Shown here: positions 3,827 through 47,489 of the stretch, piece by piece | Position numbering within the stretch: position 1 is the stretch's first letter | How the letters are laid out: every line of letters starts with the position of its first letter | NCBI GenBank assembly: GCA_041500865.1 | Contig: JBGQMY010000007.1 | Location: forward strand, 1 to 47,489 | DNA: 47,489 bases | Direction of reading: 5' to 3' | Source of the DNA: Candidatus Micrarchaeia archaeon | GTDB lineage: Archaea > Micrarchaeota > Micrarchaeia > Anstonellales > J096 | Notes under the pieces: generated by a model | What the model was told of the DNA's origin: nothing | What the model saw: the letters and a program-made list of their open reading frames with translations, nothing else | Databases searched by the model: none | Position numbers and translations under genes: made by a program

Positions 3827-4780
3827 CTATTGGCCGATGCATTCGCTGAATGCGGAGATAAACAGCTTTCCGGTTTCTTTCTCTATCAGGATTGCGCCGT
3901 TCTCTATCAATAAAGCGCAGGCTTCTGCATTCTCTGAATGTGCGGCAAGCATGAACGCGGTTCTGCCGCCATTGTCCTTGGCGTTGATGTCCGCGCCTTT
4001 TTTAATCAACAATCTGCATGTGTCGGCGTGCCCCATCTTCGCGGCAATCATGAGCGCGGTCTTGCCTTCTTCGTCTTTTTCCTCTATGTTTGCGCCCATT
4101 TTGATTAGTAGAGCGCACGTTTCAGTGCTCCCATTTTCTGCGGCAATCATGAGCGCGGTCTTGCCATCACGATCCTTTGTGTCGATTTTTGCGCCTTTTT
4201 CAACCAGTAATTTGCATATGTCAGTGTGCCTTCTTTCCGCAGCCCACATCAGCGCGGTCTTTCCCCAGCTGTCCTTATCTTCCATTCTTGCCCCGTTGTT
4301 TAATAGAACCCTGCATTTGCCAGTGGCGCCTGACAATGCGGCATTGATGAGCGGGGTCATATTCTGCTTGTCCTTTGCGTTCACCTTTGCGCCGTGCTTT
4401 ATCAGCAGCTCAGCGTTTTCCTGGGAAAATATCTGCATCAGCGGCGTCCAGCCATATTTATTGCTCGCATTAACATCTGCGCCATGGTTTATGAGAAGCT
4501 TAAGCTCGTCTATTTCCGCATGCCCTTCTGACGAAACTAGCAAAGGCGTATTGCCGTTCTCATCCTTTGAGTTCACGTTTGCGCCCCTTTTAATCAGCCT
4601 TTCTAGGTAATCTGTGCTGTGCCAGAGAAGCCGCAACTCGAAACGGAGCTCGCCGTCCAGCCGCTTCTGCTCTTCCTCGGAAAGCCTTGGGCTTTCGGTC
4701 TTGGGGCCGTATCTGCTGAGTGATTTGGATATGCCTGGCTGGTTTTTTATTTTGATTTCGGTTTTCGGCTTTTCCTGCAT
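3827..4780 (-). CDS. Ankyrin repeat protein with C-terminal F-x3-F-x2-C-x3 tail
   Basis: About 8 ankyrin repeats (GKTALMxAA...LLIxxGAxIxxKD); start MQEKPK; ends LFISAFSECIGQ. Confidence 0.9.
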   Translation of the reverse strand: MQEKPKTEIKIKNQPGISKSLSRYGPKTESPRLSEEEQKRLDGELRFELRLLWHSTDYLERLIKRGANVNSKDENGNTPLLVSSEGHAEIDELKLLINHGADVNASNKYGWTPLMQIFSQENAELLIKHGAKVNAKDKQNMTPLINAALSGATGKCRVLLNNGARMEDKDSWGKTALMWAAERRHTDICKLLVEKGAKIDTKDRDGKTALMIAAENGSTETCALLIKMGANIEEKDEEGKTALMIAAKMGHADTCRLLIKKGADINAKDNGGRTAFMLAAHSENAEACALLIENGAILIEKETGKLFISAFSECIGQ

Positions 4781-26433: not shown

Positions 26434-27375
26434 TTATCTTGCAGAAGCCGCCGACCTGAGCAAATCTGCGGTCTTGCTGTGCCCGTTTTCCATGGCATAC
26501 GTGAGCGCATTCCTGCCGGCCTGGTCCCTTGCATTCACGTCCGCTCCCTTCTCGAGCAGCAACGATACAATCCCGTATTGGCCTTCCCTTGCCGCAAACA
26601 TGAGCGGGGTCCAGCCGTTGATGTCTCTCGCATTCACATAGGCCTTGTTTCTGACAAGGAGCGCAGCGACTTCATTCTGGTCTTCGATGATGGCCCGCAT
26701 CAGCGCGGTTATGCCGTATTCGTCCATTGCATTGATTTTGGCGCCATGCCTCAGCAGCAGTACGGCCATTTCGGCGTTTCCGCTCATGGCAGCCAGCATG
26801 AGCGGGGTTTGCTCCCTGAGATTGAGCAGCTTGACGTTGCCGTGTTTGTTGGGGTCGGCTCCCCTTTCCAGCAGAAGCTCCACGGTTTTGCAATAATATT
26901 TGTTGTCAAATGCGGCCAGTATGAGCGGGGTGTTACCGTCGGCGTTTGTTGCGTTTACGTCTGCGCCGCTGTCAATAAGCAAGGCGCACGTTTCCGTATT
27001 GATGGCAGAGCAGGCCGCATGATGCAGCGGGGTCCAGCCGTTGGCGTCCTTTGCGTTCACGTCTGCGCCGTTTTTCAGCAGCGAATCCACAACTTCTGTT
27101 TTGCCAAATGCGGCTGCATTCATCAGGGCGCTGTCGCAAGCCGGCTGCTCCGAATATGTATCGGCCTTGCGCGTGTCGGGTTTGTCGCGCGGAGCTGCGC
27201 AGCCTTGGATAATAAGCACTGCGGAAAGTGCCAAGGCCGCATAAAGAGTTGGTACATGCACCCTGCGCCTTATCCTTCCGACAAGGGGCTCCATTGCACT
27301 GAACGAACGGGCCTTTTGTGAAGCATCGAGTTTGTCCTTTACGGACGATGGCTTAAGCCCTAATGCCAGATTCAT
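26434..27375 (-). CDS. Ankyrin repeat protein with an Arg-rich signal-like segment and lipobox
   Basis: About 7 ankyrin repeats; RIRRR followed by hydrophobic LYAALALSAVLIIQG|C; lacks the C-terminal Cys tail of the other ankyrin proteins. Confidence 0.88.
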   Translation of the reverse strand: MNLALGLKPSSVKDKLDASQKARSFSAMEPLVGRIRRRVHVPTLYAALALSAVLIIQGCAAPRDKPDTRKADTYSEQPACDSALMNAAAFGKTEVVDSLLKNGADVNAKDANGWTPLHHAACSAINTETCALLIDSGADVNATNADGNTPLILAAFDNKYYCKTVELLLERGADPNKHGNVKLLNLREQTPLMLAAMSGNAEMAVLLLRHGAKINAMDEYGITALMRAIIEDQNEVAALLVRNKAYVNARDINGWTPLMFAAREGQYGIVSLLLEKGADVNARDQAGRNALTYAMENGHSKTADLLRSAASAR

Positions 27376-36826: not shown

Positions 36827-37159
36827 ATGTTTAAAAAGCTTGTTTTAGTGTCGGTAGCCCTTATCCCCAAGGGCAGCGTTTCGACGTACGGGGACATTGC
36901 CGGGTCTATCGGAAACCCTGGGCTGGCAAGGGCCGTGGGAAACGCCCTTCATGGAAACCCGTATCCCAAAAAGGTGCCGTGCCACCGCGTTGTGCATTCG
37001 GACGGCTCCCTGGCCCGTAATTTCGCGTTTGGCGGCAAAAAACGCCAAATGGAAATGCTGGAAAAGGAGGGCGTGCCGTTCATGGGAAACGGAAAAGTCG
37101 ACATGAAAAGGGCGCAAAGGCACTTTTATAAACCGTTTATTGCCAAAATGCACATATGA
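36827..37159 (+). CDS. ogt: Methylated-DNA--protein-cysteine methyltransferase (single-domain MGMT)
   Basis: IPKG.V.TYGDIA, ARAVG.AL..NP, active-site PCHRV. Confidence 0.9.
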   Translation: MFKKLVLVSVALIPKGSVSTYGDIAGSIGNPGLARAVGNALHGNPYPKKVPCHRVVHSDGSLARNFAFGGKKRQMEMLEKEGVPFMGNGKVDMKRAQRHFYKPFIAKMHI

Positions 37160-39792
37160 CAAACGGTGAGAAGCTCGCAAAGACCAAGGCTGAAGCACAA
37201 CAGCAGAAGCCTGTTGAGATAAAGCCAACAACCGTTGCGCAGAGCACAAACCTCAGCCAGACAAACATAAACCTCATTCAAGTACTCAAGGAAACGTCAA
37301 AGACCGAGCTGGAGGTTATCCGCGCAATAACAAAGGTGCCGCTCTGGAACATGATGTTAAAGGAAATGTCAGGCCTCGGACTGGTGACAAGCGCCTTCAC
37401 GGGACCGAAGAAATACAATGAGATTCTGAAGGAATCCGACCACGTCCAAGAATTATACAAGAACTTCGCGAACGATTTGCTTTATTTGAACAAGTACCTC
37501 ATAGAGTCCCGCTCCGGAAAAATTAAGTTGGACGGCGAGGAACTTTCCAAGAGGATGGAGAACTATTTCAACTCATACAATGCATATACCGAAGGGCTTT
37601 TGAAAATAAGGGAAAGGGTTGAGGCATATACGATAAACACCAAGAGCGATTATGCCCTGGCTGCTGTTGACGCTGCGCTAACCCTTTCCACTGTTATCGG
37701 CGTCGGAGCCCTTGTCGGCGCAGGCGCAAAGGCGGTCGGCGGCCTTGCGCTGAAGGAAGGCGCGGAGATAAGCGCAAAGGCGCTTGCCAAGGAAGCCGCA
37801 AAGAACGCATTCAAGAGCGCAATCAACAGGAACGCATTTGCGATAAACGTGTTCGCATCTTCCGCAACCGCAGGGGTTGAGGTATGGAACCAGAGCGAAA
37901 TGAACGACGCCATAAGGAAGTTTGAGGCAAACCCGCGCGAAGGCATAAACAGCATGGACAAGTTCCTTTCAGGAGTGGAATCCAGCGTGGCAAATGCCGG
38001 CAACAAAAACAAGGAAGAGATAATGAAGATGATAAAGGAGGAGCATATTCACCTTGATGAGATGAAAGCCAAGCTCGACGAACCGGGCCACAAGATAGAG
38101 TTTGTGGACGCTGCCAAGATGTTCGCCACGACTTTCGCAGTGTCCATGCTCATCGAGACCGGCCTCGGCGCGGCCAAGACGGTGAAGGGCGTATTCAAGG
38201 CAAAGGCGCCAAGGGCCAAGGTTGAGGTTGCAAAGACCGAGACCAAAATTGAAAGGGCTCCTGAAGAAGCCGCCAAGGAGACAAAGGCTAAAATAACGGC
38301 AAAGGAGCATAGCGACCAGATCAGGTCCGAGTTCGACAGGAAATCCAAGGAGACTGAGGCAGGGCAACTGCACCAGTATCTAACCAATACCACGATGCCG
38401 GCAGAAGCCCTTGCCAAGTTCCAGGAAGGGAAGTTTGGAAAGGCGCTGGCTGAGGTCGGCGAGAATTACTCCGGAAAAATCGGCGAAGTTGGAATAGGAC
38501 AAGCAGCCTTGACCAAAGGCGTGTCAATTGATTTCAAACTAATAATTCTGGACATGAAGAATACCTGGTTCTTTGGCGGCATGGGCAAGCAGAACGCCGA
38601 CGTCGCAATAAATATATACCTAAGAACGCTCAGGGAAACCGCAAAGCAGTACGACGTCACCATAAGCATGGCCAAGGGTTCGGACGAGGTGTATGTTTTT
38701 CTGGCAAAGGACCAGAACCCAAAGCTTTTCTTAGACACTGTCAAGGAAAGGCTGGATGCGCTGGTTAGCAGGGTTGAGGTAATCGGGGCCAGTGCCGCGG
38801 AAAAGACGAAGATAACGTCGAACCTCGGCAAGATAGGCTACGAGACAAAGGATGTGATGATGTCGCTCAACAGCAATCCCAAGGGGGAGGTCTCGTACTC
38901 GATGCAGGTAAGCGTCAAGCAGGAGGGCAAGACTGTCGTCAAGAGCGGGCTCAACTTCGATTCGACGATGACTGAGATCGAGCTTGAAACTATGTTTTCA
39001 AAGTTGAACAACAAGGAGCTTGAGGTTGACGTGCGCTCCTTCATATCAAGGTTCGACGCCATGAAAGGCGAGAAGGTTATGGAAATAGACAAATCCCAAT
39101 ACGTAACCCAGGCAAGGCTTTCCTTTGACAAGAACACCATGGGGGCACTCAGCGAGCTGACCGACAAGCTTGGCAAGGGCAAGATGCAGGTGGAGTCTGG
39201 GGAGATAGGCCCCAGTGTGCTCAACCTGCTCAGCTATCCAGTTGTGAATAGAGTCGAATACGCGTATTACTCCGCGCTGATGAAGGCAATCAAGGACAAC
39301 AACATAATCATAGGAAGGGAAAAGGATGCAGGGCCGCTGTCATACGCATTCAAGACAAGGGACGGCTCTGCGATAGACGCAAAGAAGATAGAGAAGGCGA
39401 TACTTGAGGCTAGGAAGTCGTTCGAGGCCGAGATGAAAGGCAGGGGTATAGAAGTTTCATCAAAGAACTACAGCGGCACGACCCATGCCGAAGCATCCTC
39501 AAAGGTCATGGGAGGGATGTCGCAGGACCAGATAGACCTGGAAAACAAGGGTGTTGTCCTGATGCATCTGAGCCCGTCGTACTGGCGGACGATTATAGCC
39601 GACAGCAAGGTAATGGACGTGGTTTTGAGGGGGGAAGGCCTGCCGAGGTCCGTGAGGAACATAAGCGACTTCATGAAATATCTCAAGATGAACAACGTTG
39701 AGGTCGACCCAGGAGCGGTGTTTAACGCCGCGGAGCTTCAGAAGGTGAATATAATATGCAAACTACCAGAGATAACAGTAAAAGTAATGTGA
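37156..39792 (+). CDS. 878-aa hypothetical protein: coiled coil, Gly/Ala-rich hydrophobic region and degenerate GGDEF-like domain
   Basis: Hydrophobic ALAAVDAALTLSTVIGVGALVGAGAKAVGG; GGDEF-like LIILDMKN...G...AD......GSDEVYVFL. Confidence 0.75.
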   Translation: MTNGEKLAKTKAEAQQQKPVEIKPTTVAQSTNLSQTNINLIQVLKETSKTELEVIRAITKVPLWNMMLKEMSGLGLVTSAFTGPKKYNEILKESDHVQELYKNFANDLLYLNKYLIESRSGKIKLDGEELSKRMENYFNSYNAYTEGLLKIRERVEAYTINTKSDYALAAVDAALTLSTVIGVGALVGAGAKAVGGLALKEGAEISAKALAKEAAKNAFKSAINRNAFAINVFASSATAGVEVWNQSEMNDAIRKFEANPREGINSMDKFLSGVESSVANAGNKNKEEIMKMIKEEHIHLDEMKAKLDEPGHKIEFVDAAKMFATTFAVSMLIETGLGAAKTVKGVFKAKAPRAKVEVAKTETKIERAPEEAAKETKAKITAKEHSDQIRSEFDRKSKETEAGQLHQYLTNTTMPAEALAKFQEGKFGKALAEVGENYSGKIGEVGIGQAALTKGVSIDFKLIILDMKNTWFFGGMGKQNADVAINIYLRTLRETAKQYDVTISMAKGSDEVYVFLAKDQNPKLFLDTVKERLDALVSRVEVIGASAAEKTKITSNLGKIGYETKDVMMSLNSNPKGEVSYSMQVSVKQEGKTVVKSGLNFDSTMTEIELETMFSKLNNKELEVDVRSFISRFDAMKGEKVMEIDKSQYVTQARLSFDKNTMGALSELTDKLGKGKMQVESGEIGPSVLNLLSYPVVNRVEYAYYSALMKAIKDNNIIIGREKDAGPLSYAFKTRDGSAIDAKKIEKAILEARKSFEAEMKGRGIEVSSKNYSGTTHAEASSKVMGGMSQDQIDLENKGVVLMHLSPSYWRTIIADSKVMDVVLRGEGLPRSVRNISDFMKYLKMNNVEVDPGAVFNAAELQKVNIICKLPEITVKVM

Positions 39793-41764: not shown

Positions 41765-42376
41765 TCAGTTCCCGTATATGCAGCTGAAAAATGAGTCGGT
41801 AAATGGCTTGGCTGATGCTCCCAAGGACTGGAACATCATTTCCTTGGATTCTGCAAGATTGACAAGGTCGCTTGTGTTGGGGATGTTTGGCCAGAACGAA
41901 TAGCCGAGGTTGTCTGCCGTCCATTCCCTTTCCTTGACTATTGGGCTGGGGCCCATGAAAGCCAATGCAAAGCATGTTGCAATCCTGTGCCTGGCGCTTT
42001 TTCCCCCGGCAGTGGGATTTTCCTTTGCCGCATATGTGAATGCGTTGATGCCGCTGTAATTCAGCTTTTCCGCATCAGCCCCGTTCTGCATAAGGAAGCG
42101 GCACATTTTCGGATTAGAGTCAAAAGCTGCATACATCAACGGGGTCATGTTGAGCCCAGGGTCTATTCCGTTGACATCAGCGCCTGCCCTGATGGCAAGC
42201 CCAGCCTTCCTTTCATCTCCCATTATCACTGCCTTTTTCAGCATTTCAAAAAGTTCGTGCTTCCTTCTTGCCTCCAGCGCTTCCGGCTTTTCCTCCACCT
42301 TCGGCTGCCTTTTGCTGAATAGCCTTTTCTTTATTGTTGTAAACGCATGCCTTATCTTGCCCTTGCTCTTTTCCAT
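41765..42376 (-). CDS. Ankyrin repeat protein with C-terminal F-x3-F-x2-C tail
   Basis: AGADVN...MTPLMYAA...FLMQNGAD; ends PFTDSFFSCIYGN. Confidence 0.85.
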   Translation of the reverse strand: MEKSKGKIRHAFTTIKKRLFSKRQPKVEEKPEALEARRKHELFEMLKKAVIMGDERKAGLAIRAGADVNGIDPGLNMTPLMYAAFDSNPKMCRFLMQNGADAEKLNYSGINAFTYAAKENPTAGGKSARHRIATCFALAFMGPSPIVKEREWTADNLGYSFWPNIPNTSDLVNLAESKEMMFQSLGASAKPFTDSFFSCIYGN

Positions 42377-42384
42377 TATGTGGT

Positions 42385-42431
42385 TTGTGCGGCAAAGGTG
42401 TTAAAAATCATCCTGCGAGGCACTCGCCGAA
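42385..42431. repeat. 47-bp direct repeat, copy 1 (ankyrin gene 3' end plus the next gene's promoter)
   Basis: 44/47 identical to 43159-43205. Confidence 0.85.
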
Positions 42432-43151
42432 GGATTTTGTGAAGCCAGGCGCCATCTCATTTCCGACTATTGATTCAATCAATTTAGCTGCAAGGAAATT
42501 CAGGACTTCGGTGTCTTCGGCATGTACGGCCCATTGTATGGCTGTCCATCCGTCGTTCTTTTTTCTCATGGTAATTAATTTCCCTGCGCTTCCGCCTGCT
42601 TCTGCGTATTTTTCCAGCAAAAAGGCGCAGGTTCCGATGTGTTCGTTGAATGCGGCCTCGATTAAGGCCGTCTCGCCGTCTTTGCTCCTTGCGGAGATGA
42701 ATTCCCTTATTTTTCTTTTGTCATTCCCGACTGATTCTGCGTATTCTTGTATCAGCAGGGCGCAGGTCTTTGCATATCCGTTGAATGCCGCCCAAACCAG
42801 GGCTGTCTTGCCGTCTTTTGCCTTTGCTGCGATGAACTCCTTTATGTTTCCGCCTGATTTCTTATATTCTTCAATAAGCAGGGCGCAAGTTTCAGTGCGC
42901 CCCTGCACCGCGGCCTCGTGCAGGGCCGTCCAGCCCTTGTCATCTTTTGTAGCGACATCCGCGCCGGCCTTGATAAGCTTCCTTATCTCTCTATTTTCCC
43001 CTTTTTCGGCTGAAAAAAGAAGGCTGCGGTTAAGGCTCTCCTGCTCCCGTTGCCGCATCATGCTGAAAAAATTCTCTGGCTTCGGCTTGTGGAACGGCGC
43101 TTTTTTCGCCTTGACAGCGGTTTTCGTTGTCCTGCCTTTCCTTTCCTGCAT
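42408..43151 (-). CDS. Ankyrin repeat protein with C-terminal F-x3-F-x2-C-x3 tail
   Basis: GWTALHEAA, GKTALVWAA, GETALIEAA; ends GFTKSFGECLAG. Confidence 0.88.
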   Translation of the reverse strand: MQERKGRTTKTAVKAKKAPFHKPKPENFFSMMRQREQESLNRSLLFSAEKGENREIRKLIKAGADVATKDDKGWTALHEAAVQGRTETCALLIEEYKKSGGNIKEFIAAKAKDGKTALVWAAFNGYAKTCALLIQEYAESVGNDKRKIREFISARSKDGETALIEAAFNEHIGTCAFLLEKYAEAGGSAGKLITMRKKNDGWTAIQWAVHAEDTEVLNFLAAKLIESIVGNEMAPGFTKSFGECLAG

Positions 43152-43158
43152 GCCTTTA

Positions 43159-43205
43159 TTGTGCGGCGAAGGTGTTAAAAATCATCCTGCAACGCACTCG
43201 CCGAA
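43159..43205. repeat. 47-bp direct repeat, copy 2
   Basis: TTGTGCGGCGAAGGTGTTAAAAATCATCCTGCAACGCACTCGCCGAA. Confidence 0.85.
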
Positions 43206-43730
43206 CGGTTTCATAAACGCATTTCCAGTTATGCCCGCAAGCCATTCCATGTGCTTGAGGAATGCAGCCGTTTCCTTCCTTTCCATTAGTTTGGCCCACA
43301 TAAAAGAAGTCCTTTTCGGGAAGAGCTCGTCTTTTTGATTTAAATCTGCGCCTTTTTCAACCAACAGCATGCATACGTCAGTATATCCTTCCCGTGCGGC
43401 ATGCATGAGCGCAGTCCTGCCGTTGTTGTCCTTCGCCTCGATGCTTGCGCCTTTTTCAAGCAATAACGCGCAGGTTGGGGTGTGTCCCCAATATGCGGCC
43501 CACATGAGCGCAGTCCAGCCGTTATTATTCTTTACCTCGATGCTTGCGCCAACCTTCAGCAGTCTTTCCGCCCTTTTTGTTCTGCCATTTTTAGCAGCAT
43601 CCAACAGCATGCCATTGAGCTGTTCCTGCTTTTTCTCTGATAATGCCTTCTTTTGGCTTTCTATTATGCCAGCTTTGGGTTTGGCTGGCGCCTTTGCCTG
43701 CGCATTCCCTTGGAGCCTCTTTTCCTGCAT
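43182..43730 (-). CDS. Ankyrin repeat protein with C-terminal F-x3-F-x2-C-x3 tail
   Basis: Start MQEKR; GWTALMWAA, GRTALMHAA; ends AFMKPFGECVAG. Confidence 0.88.
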   Translation of the reverse strand: MQEKRLQGNAQAKAPAKPKAGIIESQKKALSEKKQEQLNGMLLDAAKNGRTKRAERLLKVGASIEVKNNNGWTALMWAAYWGHTPTCALLLEKGASIEAKDNNGRTALMHAAREGYTDVCMLLVEKGADLNQKDELFPKRTSFMWAKLMERKETAAFLKHMEWLAGITGNAFMKPFGECVAG

Positions 43731-43766
43731 GCCTCTATTGTGCAGCAACGAGTTTTTAACGTTATT

Positions 43767-44843
43767 TTAGATTTCCTTGAACTTTGCCTTGCCTGCGCTG
43801 CCTTTCATCATCCCTGAAAGCTCGGCAAAAAGGGGCCCTTTTATCCTTACCCTAGGCCTGCTTGACACCTTGCACATCTCAGGCAGGCATGCGCTGAGCC
43901 TGTATGTGCCGATTTTCATCGCTATTGTTATTATGTCATTCTTTGTCATGCCGATGAGCGGCCTTAGCACGAACTTGTCTGTTGACGAGTCCAAAAGCGC
44001 CAAATTATCCAATGTCTGCGTTGATACCTGGCCTATGCTTTCCCCTGTTGCGAGAACCTGGATTCCAAGCTCATCCGCAATCTTGGACGCTGCGATGTAC
44101 ATCCCTGCCTTCAGCCCCATCTGCCTGAACTCGTTGTCCAGCCTGGACAGCTCCTCCATGATTGCTCCGTTGTCAGCAAAATAGAACTTGCCCCTTATGC
44201 GGTATTCCTTTTGGAGATGCTCCCAAATTTTCTTGACCTGCCTTGCGCTTATCTCGTTGCCAAAATGCAGGGCGTCAAGGTGCAGCCCTCTTCTTGCAAG
44301 CATGTATGCCGCAACCGGAGAGTCTATGCCGCCTGAGAAAAGCATGAGCGCCCTTCCGCCAGAGCCGTATGGGAGCCCTGTGACGCCCTCAATCCTCTTG
44401 AAAAGGCAGAGCGCCTTTTTCTCCTCTATCTCAATGTAGACGATTTCGTCATAGCCCCTTACGCTCATTTTGACGCCTTTTTTGTCAAGCAGCCCTGAAA
44501 CCTTTATGGCAAGCTCCGTTGAGTTCATGGGATAGGCCTTGAACCTCCTTTTGCCCTCTATCTTGTATTTTTTGGATTTGTCCGCGTTTTTTGCTATGGT
44601 TTCCGCGATTTCCTCAGGGGAATTTCCGCACTCGAAGCACACGCAGACGTTGGAGATTCCGAAAATCCTGGAAAGCCCTTCGGATACATCCGTTTCTGAC
44701 TCAATCTCAACAATGCCGTTTGTCAATGATATTTTTATGTCCGGGAAGGCCGCCATTATGTTGGATTTCAGTATGCGCTCCAGCCTCTTTCTTTCCTTTG
44801 GGCCCTTTATTATTGGTTCGGCATACTTGGCGATTAATTTCAT
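43767..44843 (-). CDS. thiI: tRNA 4-thiouridine synthase ThiI
   Basis: THUMP domain, PP-loop SGGIDSPVA, TGESIGQVSTQTL, RPLIG. Confidence 0.92.
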   Translation of the reverse strand: MKLIAKYAEPIIKGPKERKRLERILKSNIMAAFPDIKISLTNGIVEIESETDVSEGLSRIFGISNVCVCFECGNSPEEIAETIAKNADKSKKYKIEGKRRFKAYPMNSTELAIKVSGLLDKKGVKMSVRGYDEIVYIEIEEKKALCLFKRIEGVTGLPYGSGGRALMLFSGGIDSPVAAYMLARRGLHLDALHFGNEISARQVKKIWEHLQKEYRIRGKFYFADNGAIMEELSRLDNEFRQMGLKAGMYIAASKIADELGIQVLATGESIGQVSTQTLDNLALLDSSTDKFVLRPLIGMTKNDIITIAMKIGTYRLSACLPEMCKVSSRPRVRIKGPLFAELSGMMKGSAGKAKFKEI

Positions 44844-44889
44844 AATATTGGGTTTAGGATGCCCATTGTTTTAATCCTTTTGGAATAGA

Positions 44890-45474
44890 CTATTGGGCTG
44901 TGCACGCGTTGAAACTGGAAAAGAACCTGCCCGCTTCTTCTTTGCTCAATAACCTATCTCTTACCAAATAAGCCCCAAGAAACCTTCCTGTTGTTTTGGC
45001 TTTTCCGAACTGCATGGCCCACGCGAGCGGGGTCCTGCCGTCCTTGTTCCTTGCCTCGATATCTGCTCCGTTTTCAAGCAATAGGGCGCAGGTTTGGATG
45101 TGCCCGCCCCCCGCGGCCCAGTGAAGGGCAGTTATCTTGAGGCTATCTGCCGCATTGATAAATTTCCTTGCGTTTCCGCCGGACTTTGCGTATTCCGCCA
45201 AGAGAAAGGCGCAGATTTGGATGTACCCGTTCATTGCAGCAAAAATGAACGCTGTATGGCCGGCCCAGCCTCTTGCCTCTATGTCCGCGCCTGCTTTCAA
45301 AAGCCGCTTGCATTCATCCAGCCGGTTGTTCCGGGCCGCCTCCAGAAACCCATCGTTGAGCTGATTCTGCTTTTTAGGATTGGGCTTTCTTTTTTCAGAT
45401 TCTGGCTTGTGGACGAGGTTATTCAGCCTAAGCAAAACTTTGTGAATTTTTGACTCCTTGAGCCTCTGCGCCAT
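44890..45474 (-). CDS. Ankyrin repeat protein with C-terminal F-x3-F-x2-C-x3 tail
   Basis: [10 protein letters not shown]...[18 protein letters not shown]; ends [12 protein letters not shown]. Confidence 0.88.
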
Positions 45475-45661: not shown

Positions 45662-46213
45662 TTATTTTATGCTTATCGGCTTCTTGCCTTCCTCTTTCTT
45701 CGCATGCTTTGCCTTCATAGTTATCTCAAGCACGCCGTTGTTGTACTTCGCGTCAATCGTCCCTTCGTCCGGCTCTTCCTCCAAATCAACGACCTTGTAG
45801 TACTGCCTTTCAGACGTTTTGACCTTTATCTCAATCTTGTCCTTGCCGACAATCGCCAGCTTTATGTCCTCTTTTTTGACTCCCGGCATCTCGGCAACCA
45901 CCCGTATGGTGTCTTTATCAGCTATGACATCAGTGAACGGGACCCTCTCGTTTCCCTTTTCCTCTTTCGGCGCTTCCTCAAACGGCTTTGCCTGCTTGAC
46001 GTTCCCGAATTCCTCTATGATGGGCTTGCCGTCAGGCCCAATCTTTATGCTTACGCCGTAAACCTTTGCGTTGGGACCTGGCTTCATGCCCCTCATGCGC
46101 TCAAAGTCCTCCATCATCTCCTTTTCCATGCCTGCGAAGATGGAGCTGAAGTCTGAAAAGAATGCGTCGCTAAACCCAAACCCGAACGGCCTCCTCTTTT
46201 TTGCGTCTGCCAT
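45662..46213 (-). CDS. hsp20: Small heat shock protein Hsp20
   Basis: VYGVSIKIGPDGKPIIEEFGN, VVAEMPGV.KEDI, AKYNNGVLEI. Confidence 0.92.
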   Translation of the reverse strand: MADAKKRRPFGFGFSDAFFSDFSSIFAGMEKEMMEDFERMRGMKPGPNAKVYGVSIKIGPDGKPIIEEFGNVKQAKPFEEAPKEEKGNERVPFTDVIADKDTIRVVAEMPGVKKEDIKLAIVGKDKIEIKVKTSERQYYKVVDLEEEPDEGTIDAKYNNGVLEITMKAKHAKKEEGKKPISIK

Positions 46214-46310
46214 GCCAACCACCAATAGGCAAATGCGGCAAAAGGGATTTAAGCCTTTTGCAGACCCCGGCCCAACCTCATTTTTAAACATATACGGACA
46301 CAATAAACCC

Positions 46311-47489
46311 ATGGCAAGGAAGGTCATGAAGGGCCTGTTTCCGCTGGTCCACAGGCAGCTTTCAGCAGAAACCGCGCTGATGCTTTGCAGGAGCGGCATA
46401 GTCTTCGAGCCGATTGGCTCAAAGGTTTTTGATGTGATGAAGAGATTGGAAAAGGCGAAATACGACAAAAGGCAGGCGCGTAGCCTGACTAGGGGCTTGG
46501 AGCCATGGCAGGCAGAAAGGATAATGGAAGGCCTGGACGCAAGGAAAAGGTGGATTGGCCGCGCGAAAAAGGTGAGTGAAAGCGTTAACAGGGCCTTGGA
46601 CAGTATCACTAAGGGCCTGAACGAAGACGACCTCAAACTGCCTGTGAAGTTCATCACGATGACCGAAAGGTGCAACAGGCATTGCCTGCACTGCATGGTG
46701 TCAGCAGACATGAAAGGGACGGTCATGCCGTTCAATGACTTTGAAAGGTACATCAACGGCCTTGTGAGGCTAAGCCCGGACACGGTAATGACAGGCGCAG
46801 GGGAGCAGTTCCTTTACGACGACAGCGGAAAGGACCTTGGCGACGTCGTCAAAATCATGCTGGAAAGATGCAAGTACGTGTTCATAAGGATAGTGACGTC
46901 GGGTATAGAGATGGGCAACGGTAACTCTCCATGGGCAAGGGCCGCGCACAAGCTTGCAAACCTGGGCGAAATGGGCAAGGAAAGGGTGTCATTATCACTG
47001 AGCGTGAGGAGCTTCGCGAACCGCAGGATGAAGGCGGCAAGTGAAACGCTTAAGTTTTTCATTGAAAACGGCATGCGCGTGTTCCCCAACCTTGAAGGCA
47101 TCACGTGCCACAAAGGCGATGACGGAAAGTTCCACGGCAGCCTGGAAGAACGGGACATGATGGTGAACGACCTGCTTGCCGGCTTCGGCATTGGCAGGCT
47201 GGAAAACATACGGACCAGCGTCGGATGCGACCCGGTTTTCGCATACATGGGCAACATGGTCGCGAATTACGGGCGCATTATAAACAACATAAAAGGGTAT
47301 TTCGGCAAGGAGAAGGCCGGAAAAATCATCATACGCAGCTGGGACAACTGCAGCGGCTCATTGGGGGACGCATGCAAAAGGAAGTGGTTAGGGCTTATGC
47401 CTGACGGAATCGTGACCCCGGGATGCTGCAGCTACTCATTCCCGTTCATGAGGCTCGGTTCAATGAAGGATGCCACGCTGGAGGACAGG
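46311..47489 (+). CDS. Radical SAM protein, partial; runs off the window end and is missing from the ORF track
   Basis: Manual translation from ATG 46311 (MARKVMKG...) reaches MTERCNRHCLHC (CxxxCxxC), then TGAGEQF and IVTSG; open to the window end. Confidence 0.8.
   Translation, partial: MARKVMKGLFPLVHRQLSAETALMLCRSGIVFEPIGSKVFDVMKRLEKAKYDKRQARSLTRGLEPWQAERIMEGLDARKRWIGRAKKVSESVNRALDSITKGLNEDDLKLPVKFITMTERCNRHCLHCMVSADMKGTVMPFNDFERYINGLVRLSPDTVMTGAGEQFLYDDSGKDLGDVVKIMLERCKYVFIRIVTSGIEMGNGNSPWARAAHKLANLGEMGKERVSLSLSVRSFANRRMKAASETLKFFIENGMRVFPNLEGITCHKGDDGKFHGSLEERDMMVNDLLAGFGIGRLENIRTSVGCDPVFAYMGNMVANYGRIINNIKGYFGKEKAGKIIIRSWDNCSGSLGDACKRKWLGLMPDGIVTPGCCSYSFPFMRLGSMKDATLEDR

What the first reader, a model, noticed from the sequence alone, without database searches (positions are those of the whole stretch)
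41765..45474. Ankyrin protein family with a conserved C-terminal F-x3-F-x2-C-xxx (CaaX-like) tail: candidate lipidation or export system
Seen: five ankyrin proteins (3827-4780, 41765-42376, 42408-43151, 43182-43730, 44890-45474) differ in repeat number but end alike: [56 protein letters not shown]. In four of the five, Cys is exactly fourth from the end. All five also have a K/R-rich N-terminal leader (three start MQE-K/R), and four share a Q-x-x-L-N/D helix before the repeats. The sixth ankyrin protein (26434-27375) has an N-terminal lipobox instead and lacks the tail. Known: Cys at -4 is the eukaryotic CaaX prenylation position, and some intracellular bacteria use CaaX-bearing ankyrin effectors; I know of no characterised archaeal CaaX prenylation. 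Inference: F(i), F(i+4) and C(i+7) lie on one helix face. The tail may be a lipidation or membrane anchor, or a C-terminal secretion signal for host-directed effectors of a DPANN symbiont. One copy sits just upstream of the GGPP synthase, which may be coincidence.
Basis: partly seen in the sequence, partly recalled or inferred. Interest (0 to 1): 0.8.

Follow-up and report, generated by a model that had tools for sequence, protein, structure and literature searches.

The report
Archaeal ankyrin library with shared tail
A small symbiont-type archaeon spends about a tenth of its genes on some 97 small ankyrin proteins that all end in the same short cysteine-bearing segment, which is predicted to be a projecting helix and likely docks on one shared partner protein rather than serving as a classical prenylation tag.

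Summary
In this 1.04-Mb Micrarchaeota genome 97 ORFs (roughly 9-10% of genes) end in F-x3-F-x2-C; 78 of 105 complete ankyrin ORFs match the strict motif. The tail is restricted to one genus (3 genomes), under strong protein-level selection, and portable: a non-ankyrin protein and its three orthologues carry it. AlphaFold puts it at the tip of a helix beyond the ankyrin cap.

Family-wide CaaX is not supported. Cys is at -4 in only 57 of 97 (18 of 40 in two congeners), a2 is aliphatic in 1 of 57, and no prenyltransferase or Rce1 was found. It is not excluded for a subset: many endings are predicted FTase-compatible.

Best reading (0.45): a library of variable binders on a constant docking helix, like poxvirus ANK/F-box adaptors but failing their motifs. 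Rivals are Cys lipidation (0.22) and an export signal (0.18). Two other lineages carry different constant tails on their own ankyrin expansions. Partner and host are unknown. Earlier scan notes covered this genome's ankyrin promoter and arrays; none listed described the tail.

The parts
43182..43730 (-). Tailed ankyrin gene, 182 aa: basic leader 1-31, ankyrin stack about 32-165, tail helix 173-181, Cys at -4
43185..43292 (-). Tail module (last 36 codons): extended last ankyrin helix, Gly, then the F-x3-F-x2-C-V face
42408..43151 (-). Tailed ankyrin gene, 247 aa, Cys at -4
41765..42376 (-). Tailed, diverged ankyrin gene, 203 aa, Cys at -5
44890..45474 (-). Tailed ankyrin gene, 194 aa, Cys at -4
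3827..4780 (-). Tailed ankyrin gene, 317 aa, Cys at -4, directly upstream of the polyprenyl synthase gene
26434..27375 (-). Tail-less ankyrin gene with hydrophobic signal and lipobox-like Cys; uses the same promoter type
43152..43181 (-). Family promoter (TTTTTAA at -30 to -24, CACAAT at -12 to -7) filling the whole gap between the 43182 stop and the 43151 start; transcript probably leaderless
42377..42407 (-). Second copy of the family promoter between the 42408 stop and the 42376 start
43767..44843 (-). ThiI-family gene lying inside the ankyrin cluster; no link to the tail shown

Best explanation
About 97 small ankyrin proteins of this archaeon end in the same F-x3-F-x2-C segment, which is predicted to be a helix projecting from the ankyrin stack and likely docks on one shared partner protein, so the family would act as a library of adaptors whose variable ankyrin faces likely pick different targets. 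Shown: the size of the family, the invariant face (F-7, F-3, C0, V/I+1), protein-level selection on it, its presence on a non-ankyrin protein, and the absence of signal peptides. Predicted: the helix and its place beyond the cap. Inferred: a protein partner (not lipid alone), adaptor function, and foreign targets (host or invader proteins), since about 100 binders are hard to explain with only some 900 own proteins. The partner is unidentified; a rare tandem-AAA+/zincin-VWA machine is a weak lead.
For: Invariance: F-7 98%, F-3 94%, V/I at +1 75% among 97. With the Cys column masked, 105 of 106 hits have Cys and the exception is a broken 82-aa fragment (the seed had Cys, so partly circular). 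In the two congeners, not in the seed, 40 of 40 have Cys and 39 of 40 have each Phe. Selection is on protein, not DNA: tail-face codons dN/dS 0.10 with dS 2.0 in 16 pairs; identity 69% on the tail face, 65% on the ankyrin framework, 36% on the ankyrin binding face (tail-face columns were chosen for conservation). Structure: the full model has the stack at pLDDT about 98 and a tail helix 173-181 at 72-74; the last 55 residues alone fold as one 33-residue helix with Cys at its tip, mean pLDDT 94; solved ankyrins cover model residues 31-169. Portability: non-ankyrin ORF C13:15918-16910 scores 21.3 bits on a profile that excluded it, against 11.1 for the best non-member of 5007 ends; its three orthologues (56-62% identity) keep F, F and C. 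Parallel cases: 16 of 32 ankyrin ORFs in the 841 kb read of G008 end in L-x3-L-x2-C plus one more helix, and 10 of 14 seen in G083 share a different, Cys-free C-terminal domain. The last helix is net neutral (mean -0.2), unlike basic membrane-targeting helices (recalled).
Against: No partner was identified. BC-box and F-box patterns fail (0 of 97 with the invariant Cys, 1 of 97). No Cys-to-Ala variant was seen, which fits thiol chemistry better than packing alone (the BC box allows C, S or A: PMC6232478). The Cys stays within 6 residues of the end in 94 of 97, 40 of 40 and 74 of 74, which suggests the free C-terminus is read, as an enzyme or export machine would. The G008 tail does not align significantly to this one (hhalign probability 1.8%). 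The AAA+/VWA lead is weak: three genomes with the cassette have few ankyrins and three ankyrin-rich genomes lack it. Ankyrin expansions without any constant tail also exist (G431, G313).
Confidence: 0.45

Rival explanations
1. The helix is the recognition site of an enzyme that lipidates the Cys and anchors the binders in a membrane. The classical version, CaaX prenylation by a eukaryotic host after delivery as for Legionella AnkB, takes about 0.08 of this; an unknown archaeal transferase takes the rest.
For: Cys is invariant and near the end. Farnesyltransferase tolerates CaX and CaaaX lengths (PMC11152559, passages), matching offsets -3 to -5 (89 of 97). Of the 57 endings at -4, 32 are predicted prenylated by SVM-ESM-1b (background 33%) and 48 by Freq (background 42%); the commonest, CVAA, was prenylated on a yeast reporter (PMC9231725 supplement 7 and passages). 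Tail and lipobox are mutually exclusive (0 of 97 against 4 of 21). An ICMT/PEMT-like gene is present and, within the family, only in this genus.
Against: PrePS predicts 12 of 57 (background 20%) and FlexPepBind 3 of 57 (17%); SVM predicts cleavage for 2 of 57. a2 is G, K or D in 18 of 57, residues absent from the top hits of the yeast screen (10.1101/2023.02.06.527295). Only 18 of 40 are at -4 in congeners. Residues after the Cys are 41% identical and partly encode a ribosome-binding site or abut the next promoter. The strongest constraint lies upstream of the Cys. No match to PF00432, PF01239, PF13243 or PF02517 in a 92% complete genome (the PF00432 control did not ring). The ICMT-like gene scores 49 against a cut-off of 160 and occurs in 70 of 176 genomes of the order. 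No eukaryotic host is known.
Confidence: 0.22
2. The tail is a C-terminal export signal read by a receptor of the archaeon's own transfer machinery, which would move ankyrin effectors into the host cell.
For: Always at the extreme C-terminus (95 of 95 library hits); portable; no Sec signal; paired with a basic low-confidence leader (K+R 26%). In G083 a basic terminal segment is shared by ankyrin and non-ankyrin proteins.
Against: Only 1 clear and 1 weak non-ankyrin carrier in the genome; a general export signal should mark varied cargo. No dedicated secretion machine was identified (not searched systematically). The basic leader also occurs on tail-less ankyrins and on enzymes.
Confidence: 0.18
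3. The tail is an unmodified amphipathic helix that binds the membrane directly, like the MinD or FtsA targeting sequences (recalled).
For: Gly break followed by a terminal Phe-rich amphipathic helix; mean hydrophobic moment 1.3; predicted to project.
Against: Net neutral with Glu/Asp at -1 in 72%; Phe is hardly ever exchanged for other hydrophobic residues; the invariant Cys is unexplained.
Confidence: 0.07
4. The tail is a structural extension or capping helix inherited from the founder gene, with no partner.
For: One model breaks the helix at the Gly, which would allow fold-back; the family arose by duplication, so shared ends are expected.
Against: Tail-less ankyrins of the same genome end at the normal cap; the tail is kept on a non-ankyrin protein; the module model is one straight helix; dN/dS on the face is lower than on the ankyrin framework (0.10 against 0.38).
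Confidence: 0.08

Closest known systems
Poxvirus ANK/F-box (PRANC) and ANK/BC proteins; cellular ankyrin-SOCS-box (ASB) adaptors
   Same: Expanded family with N-terminal ankyrin repeats and a short constant C-terminal helical module with a key Cys and hydrophobic residues, portable to another protein (PMC6232478, passages).
   Different: BC-box pattern 0 of 97 with the invariant Cys and F-box pattern 1 of 97; no SOCS, F-box or PRANC family among the 25 of 27 Pfam families shown for 94 tails; proteins are much smaller; archaeal; no E2 found in the genome (control silent).
Legionella AnkB, ankyrin effector farnesylated by the host on a CaaX motif
   Same: Ankyrin repeats plus a Cys near the C-terminus in a host-dependent prokaryote (PMC2916131, passages).
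   Different: AnkB ends in canonical CVLC, and 4-12 terminal residues were tested as a sufficient signal; here a2 is small or charged, the offset drifts, and conservation lies upstream of the Cys; no eukaryotic host is known.
Ankyrin immunity proteins (Imm-ank) of polymorphic toxin systems
   Same: Small stand-alone ankyrin proteins in prokaryotes, found in poly-immunity arrays (PMC3482391, table passages).
   Different: No constant C-terminal module is described in the passages seen; no neighbouring toxin was looked for systematically here.
Archaeal lipobox lipoproteins (AliA/AliB pathway)
   Same: Cys lipidation exists in archaea (PMC12462473, search listing and start of abstract only).
   Different: That Cys follows an N-terminal signal peptide; the tailed proteins have none. 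It fits the sixth, tail-less protein only.

Membership tests
Ankyrin repeat proteins | Ankyrin repeats by profile and fold | tested here: met
   Pfam Ank_2 above cut-off in all five; Z 23.1, rmsd 0.8 over 122 residues to 4tum_A
CaaX prenylation substrates | Cys fourth from the C-terminus | tested here: not met
   57 of 97 in G000, 18 of 40 in congeners, 50 of 74 non-own library hits: met by a subset, not by the family
CaaX prenylation substrates | Aliphatic a2 residue | tested here: not met
   1 of 57 aliphatic; 18 of 57 G, K or D
CaaX prenylation substrates | Accepted by farnesyltransferase, non-canonical sequences included | tested here: inconclusive
   Four published predictors give 32, 48, 12 and 3 of 57 against backgrounds of 33, 42, 20 and 17%
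CaaX prenylation substrates | Own protein prenyltransferase alpha/beta | tested here: inconclusive
   No match to PF00432, PF01239 or PF13243; controls silent or weak for the first two; genome 92% complete
CaaX prenylation substrates | Own Rce1-like CaaX protease | tested here: not met
   PF02517 0 of 1, control rang in 11 of 14; Ste24-type protease not searched
CaaX prenylation substrates | Own isoprenylcysteine methyltransferase | tested here: inconclusive
   ICMT/PEMT-like gene present but 49 bits against a cut-off of 160 and found in 70 of 176 genomes
CaaX prenylation substrates | Prenyl group on the Cys, or a eukaryotic host | not testable with these tools
   needs mass spectrometry or a culture
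ANK/BC, ANK/F-box and ASB adaptors | Variable ankyrin head plus constant C-terminal module | tested here: met
   binding face 36% against tail face 69% identity; portable tail
ANK/BC, ANK/F-box and ASB adaptors | BC-box [TSP]-L-x3-[CSA]-x3-hydrophobic, or F-box consensus | tested here: not met
   0 of 97 and 1 of 97 (patterns from PMC6232478)
ANK/BC, ANK/F-box and ASB adaptors | Binding to a cullin ligase complex | not testable with these tools
   host unknown; PF00179 not found in G000, control silent
Ordinary ankyrin C-cap | Terminal helix packs on the repeat stack as part of the ankyrin fold | tested here: not met
   predicted tail lies beyond the cap helix and occurs on a non-ankyrin protein; atomic contacts were not available, so burial was not measured
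Archaeal lipobox lipoproteins | N-terminal signal peptide with lipobox Cys | tested here: not met
   0 of 97 tailed ORFs after start correction (1 flagged at an upstream start); 4 of 21 tail-less ORFs have a hydrophobic N-region

The most novel reading that the evidence does not exclude
Micrarchaeota of this genus carry a natural DARPin-like effector library of about 100 binders that pass into a host cell by a non-Sec route, where the invariant terminal Cys, presented by a constant helix, is lipidated or docks on a protein-destroying machine. This would be an archaeal counterpart of poxvirus and Legionella ankyrin effector families, rebuilt with a different constant tail in at least three lineages.
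Probability: 0.2. Interest if true: 0.9.

Novelty: new variant of a known kind. Interest (0 to 1): 0.68.

Why it matters
How DPANN archaea control or survive their hosts is largely open. A streamlined 1-Mb genome that spends about a tenth of its genes on variable binders with one constant handle points to a major host- or invader-directed system. The constant tail makes it testable without a culture: one short peptide can serve as bait for the partner (in sediment lysate or candidate hosts) and can be tested for lipidation, and the partner would point to the host. Different constant tails in two other lineages suggest a recurring design in this order.

Tried and rejected
Homodimer prediction of residues 28-182: no verdict, score 0.09 against a mark of 0.42; not used as evidence. 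No RNA holder listed among sequencing runs. Protein Atlas: tail region gave only short hypothetical clusters and ankyrins, the non-ankyrin carrier gave no usable hit. Sequence search of solved structures with both tail profiles: best E 0.28 and 3.3. Fold searches returned ankyrins only, and none of the 50 VIA rows aligned beyond residue 177; the module model was not searched alone, so no claim of a new fold is made. Tree of 134 ankyrin cores: 2 of 131 branches supported, so gain or loss of the tail and the relation to G008 are unresolved. DNA-level origin of the motif (recombination site, ribosome-binding site): rejected for the F/F/C face, since Cys codons match background (TGC 89 of 97 against 281 of 316) and dS is saturated; Phe codons lean to TTC (74 of 96 against 251 of 452). 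GGPP synthase link: rejected (a tail-less ankyrin-like ORF lies at that place in G002). ICMT link: not specific. Partner hunt by gene content, G000 against G008 and G007: 87 genes shared with G008 only; only the AAA+/VWA cassette was followed and it is inconclusive. One weak tail match outside the genus (G199, E 3e-4, stop inside) was not followed. Paper searches for Micrarchaeota + ankyrin, DPANN + ankyrin repeat, ankyrin repeat + archaea + expansion + symbiont + Micrarchae, CaaX + prenylation + archaea + ankyrin, and DPANN + effector terms listed nothing on this family by title or abstract start (listings only; open-licence library only).
Full report
OBSERVATION. The window is the whole contig C7 of a 1,043,478-base, 92% complete genome whose EF-1-alpha is nearest to Micrarchaeota records (91% and 83%). 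The stretch occurs in sediment metagenomes: leaving out the possible source run, one further study holds 0.70 and another 0.43 of its words.

THE FAMILY IS GENOME-WIDE. A six-frame scan found 108 ankyrin-positive ORFs and 97 complete ORFs with the tail. A rough gene call gives 1008 genes, 86 of them family members, so the family is about 9-10% of the genes. The strict motif ends 78 of 105 complete ankyrin ORFs, 7 of 893 other genes and 2 of 4006 shadow ORFs. Paralogues are old: median best-paralogue identity is 47%. 55 of the 97 start directly behind one promoter type with TTTTTAA at -30 to -24.

DISTRIBUTION. A 36-position tail profile from 73 of these tails matches only the genus: 94, 27 and 36 places in G000, G001 and G002, and none in the other 16 of 19 genomes of the family. 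In 401 genomes of the phylum there was one weak extra match with a stop inside. Among 1.84 billion representatives it found 95 proteins, all matched at the extreme C-terminus. Of these 20 are this genome's own, 89 have ankyrin hits, and the other 6 are 4 short fragments and 2 proteins similar to family members.

ANATOMY. Counting from the Cys: G at -14 (50%), F at -7 (98%), L/M/I at -6, S or another small residue at -4, F at -3 (94%), E/D at -1 (72%), V/I at +1 (75%). This i, i+4, i+7, i+8 spacing is one helix face, which accounts for the aliphatic residue after the Cys without CaaX. AlphaFold with 83 rows gives a low-confidence leader, a stack at pLDDT about 98, a long last helix 152-168 and a tail helix 173-181 at 72-74. 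The last 55 residues of another member, with 94 rows, fold as one 33-residue helix with the Cys at its tip. The two models differ on whether the helix breaks at the Gly, and contacts were not available. Solved ankyrins cover residues 31-169.

SELECTION. In 16 independent pairs the seven tail-face codons have dN/dS 0.10 with saturated dS, against 0.38 for the ankyrin framework. Identity is 69% on the tail face, 65% on the framework, 36% on the binding face and 41% after the +1 residue (face columns were picked for conservation, so the contrast is partly built in). A Cys-blind profile finds Cys in 105 of 106 hits among 159 ends, the exception being a broken fragment, and in 40 of 40 hits among 2333 ends from fetched congener DNA.

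PORTABILITY. C13:15918-16910 is a 330-residue protein with no Pfam or NCBIfam match. It ends in the tail (21.3 bits on a profile that excluded it; best non-member 11.1), and three orthologues keep both Phe and the Cys at -3. A second candidate (C13:5095-5736) matches the pattern but not the leave-out profile. No tailed ORF has a signal peptide after start correction, whereas 4 of 21 tail-less ones have a hydrophobic N-region.

THE CAAX READING. Against: offsets are -3 (21), -4 (57), -5 (11), -6 (5) and further (3); 13, 18, 4 and 5 in congeners; 3 of 6 reciprocal best pairs differ. a2 is aliphatic in 1 of 57 and G, K or D in 18; the yeast screen's top hits lack D, E, G, K and R at a2 (10.1101/2023.02.06.527295, one of six parts read). 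Five of 12 genes coupled to a next gene have longer Gly-rich ends that carry a ribosome-binding site (one of the 12 is a false call), and 23 stops run straight into the next promoter. No prenyltransferase or Rce1 family matched. For: farnesyltransferase also takes CaX and CaaaX (PMC11152559, passages); two of four predictors score the 57 endings above background (32 and 48 of 57) and two do not (12 and 3 of 57); CVAA was modified on a reporter (PMC9231725, supplement 7 rows and passages). In the window, SVM calls CIGQ and CTAQ positive and CLAG and CVAG negative. The endings are thus partly compatible with a eukaryotic enzyme but were not selected as canonical CaaX.

PARALLEL EXPANSIONS. Ankyrin matches number 113, 93 and 95 in the genus and 73 in G008, but 0-19 in the other 15 family members. 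In G008, 16 of 32 ankyrin ORFs end in L-x3-L-x2-C-[ND]-K plus a further helix, with the Cys 13-18 residues from the end. The spacing is the same but the profiles do not align significantly, and that tail was found in 1 of 176 genomes plus one weak match. In G083, of another family, 10 of 14 ankyrin ORFs seen in about 98 kb share a Cys-free domain of about 105 residues and a basic end also found on 2-3 non-ankyrin ORFs. G431 and G313 have many ankyrins and no constant tail in the 21 ORFs seen. So a constant module behind variable ankyrins recurs, while a Cys at -4 does not.

PARTNER LEAD. A tandem-AAA+ and zincin-VWA cassette, noted earlier by the scan, occurs in 8 of 176 genomes of the order: all four genomes with Cys tails, plus G020 and three ankyrin-poor genomes. 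A tailed ankyrin gene is coupled behind the VWA gene in G000 and a tail-less one lies 33 bases behind it in G020. G001 has a tailed gene convergent on it, and the fetched stretches of G002, G008, G011, G014 and G016 show none directly coupled. Ankyrin-rich G083, G431 and G313 lack it. Kinship could explain the overlap; I put this lead at about 0.1.

MECHANISM. Near-invariant Phe residues on an exposed, neutral helix face kept across old paralogues and moved to another fold are best explained by one stereospecific protein partner (inference). With variable binding faces in front, the family works like ANK/F-box or ANK/BC adaptor families (PMC6232478, passages) without being a member. Whether the partner is an effector machine (0.45), a Cys-modifying enzyme (0.22) or an export receptor (0.18) is not settled, and these can combine. 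Direct membrane binding (0.07) and a plain cap (0.08) are less likely.

NOVELTY. No Pfam family describes the tail, and five paper searches listed nothing on it (listings only). Earlier notes of this scan on the same genome dealt with the promoter, the arrays and the AAA+ cassette; word and sequence look-ups showed no note on this tail. Verdict: real, genus-specific and undescribed in what I could search; a new variant of the ankyrin adaptor or effector design; interest 0.68.

Noticed in passing
G000:C11:21395-32391 and C35:195-1796: Tandem array of seven roughly 535-aa paralogues (one more on C35); seven of the eight end in a Cys at -3 or -4. The last array member lacks it, so these codons may be a ribosome-binding site for the next coupled gene.
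   Followed up: no
G000:C13:22697-23536 (+); window 46311-47489 (+); C17:6451, C12:25008, C1:25195, C2:17453: The ankyrin-type promoter also precedes non-ankyrin genes, several with a basic leader: a cupin-like protein with an ankyrin-family leader, methyltransferase-like and HisG-like proteins (labels by eye) and the window's radical SAM gene.
   Followed up: partly
L270-L277 (G083): Independent ankyrin expansion with a conserved C-terminal domain of about 105 residues and a basic terminal segment shared with non-ankyrin proteins; a candidate portable signal in its own right.
   Followed up: partly
L117, L118, L120, L148, L149, L160, L163 (G008): The G008 tail resembles an ankyrin helix-turn-helix with Cys at the place of the turn Gly (by eye; not tested).
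   Followed up: no
G000:C4:21340-24057; L148:8295-10937 and L156:737-2200 (G008): A Cdc48-like ATPase with a hydrophobic N-terminus has a tailed ankyrin gene directly upstream in G000 and tailed genes or a tail next to both G008 copies; it is also present in ankyrin-poor G007.
   Followed up: partly
G000:C1:17371-17994, C13:3605-4088, C11:280, C26:10447: Broken or truncated family members with intact promoters, including the only Cys-less tail; the family turns over by birth and death.
   Followed up: no
window 37156-39792 (+): 878-aa protein without a Pfam match, with a Gly/Ala-rich hydrophobic hairpin near residue 170-200.
   Followed up: no
window 45662-46783 (-): The listed 373-aa ORF over-reads upstream; the Hsp20-family protein probably starts near residue 192, and the extra part overlaps the radical SAM gene on the other strand.
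   Followed up: no
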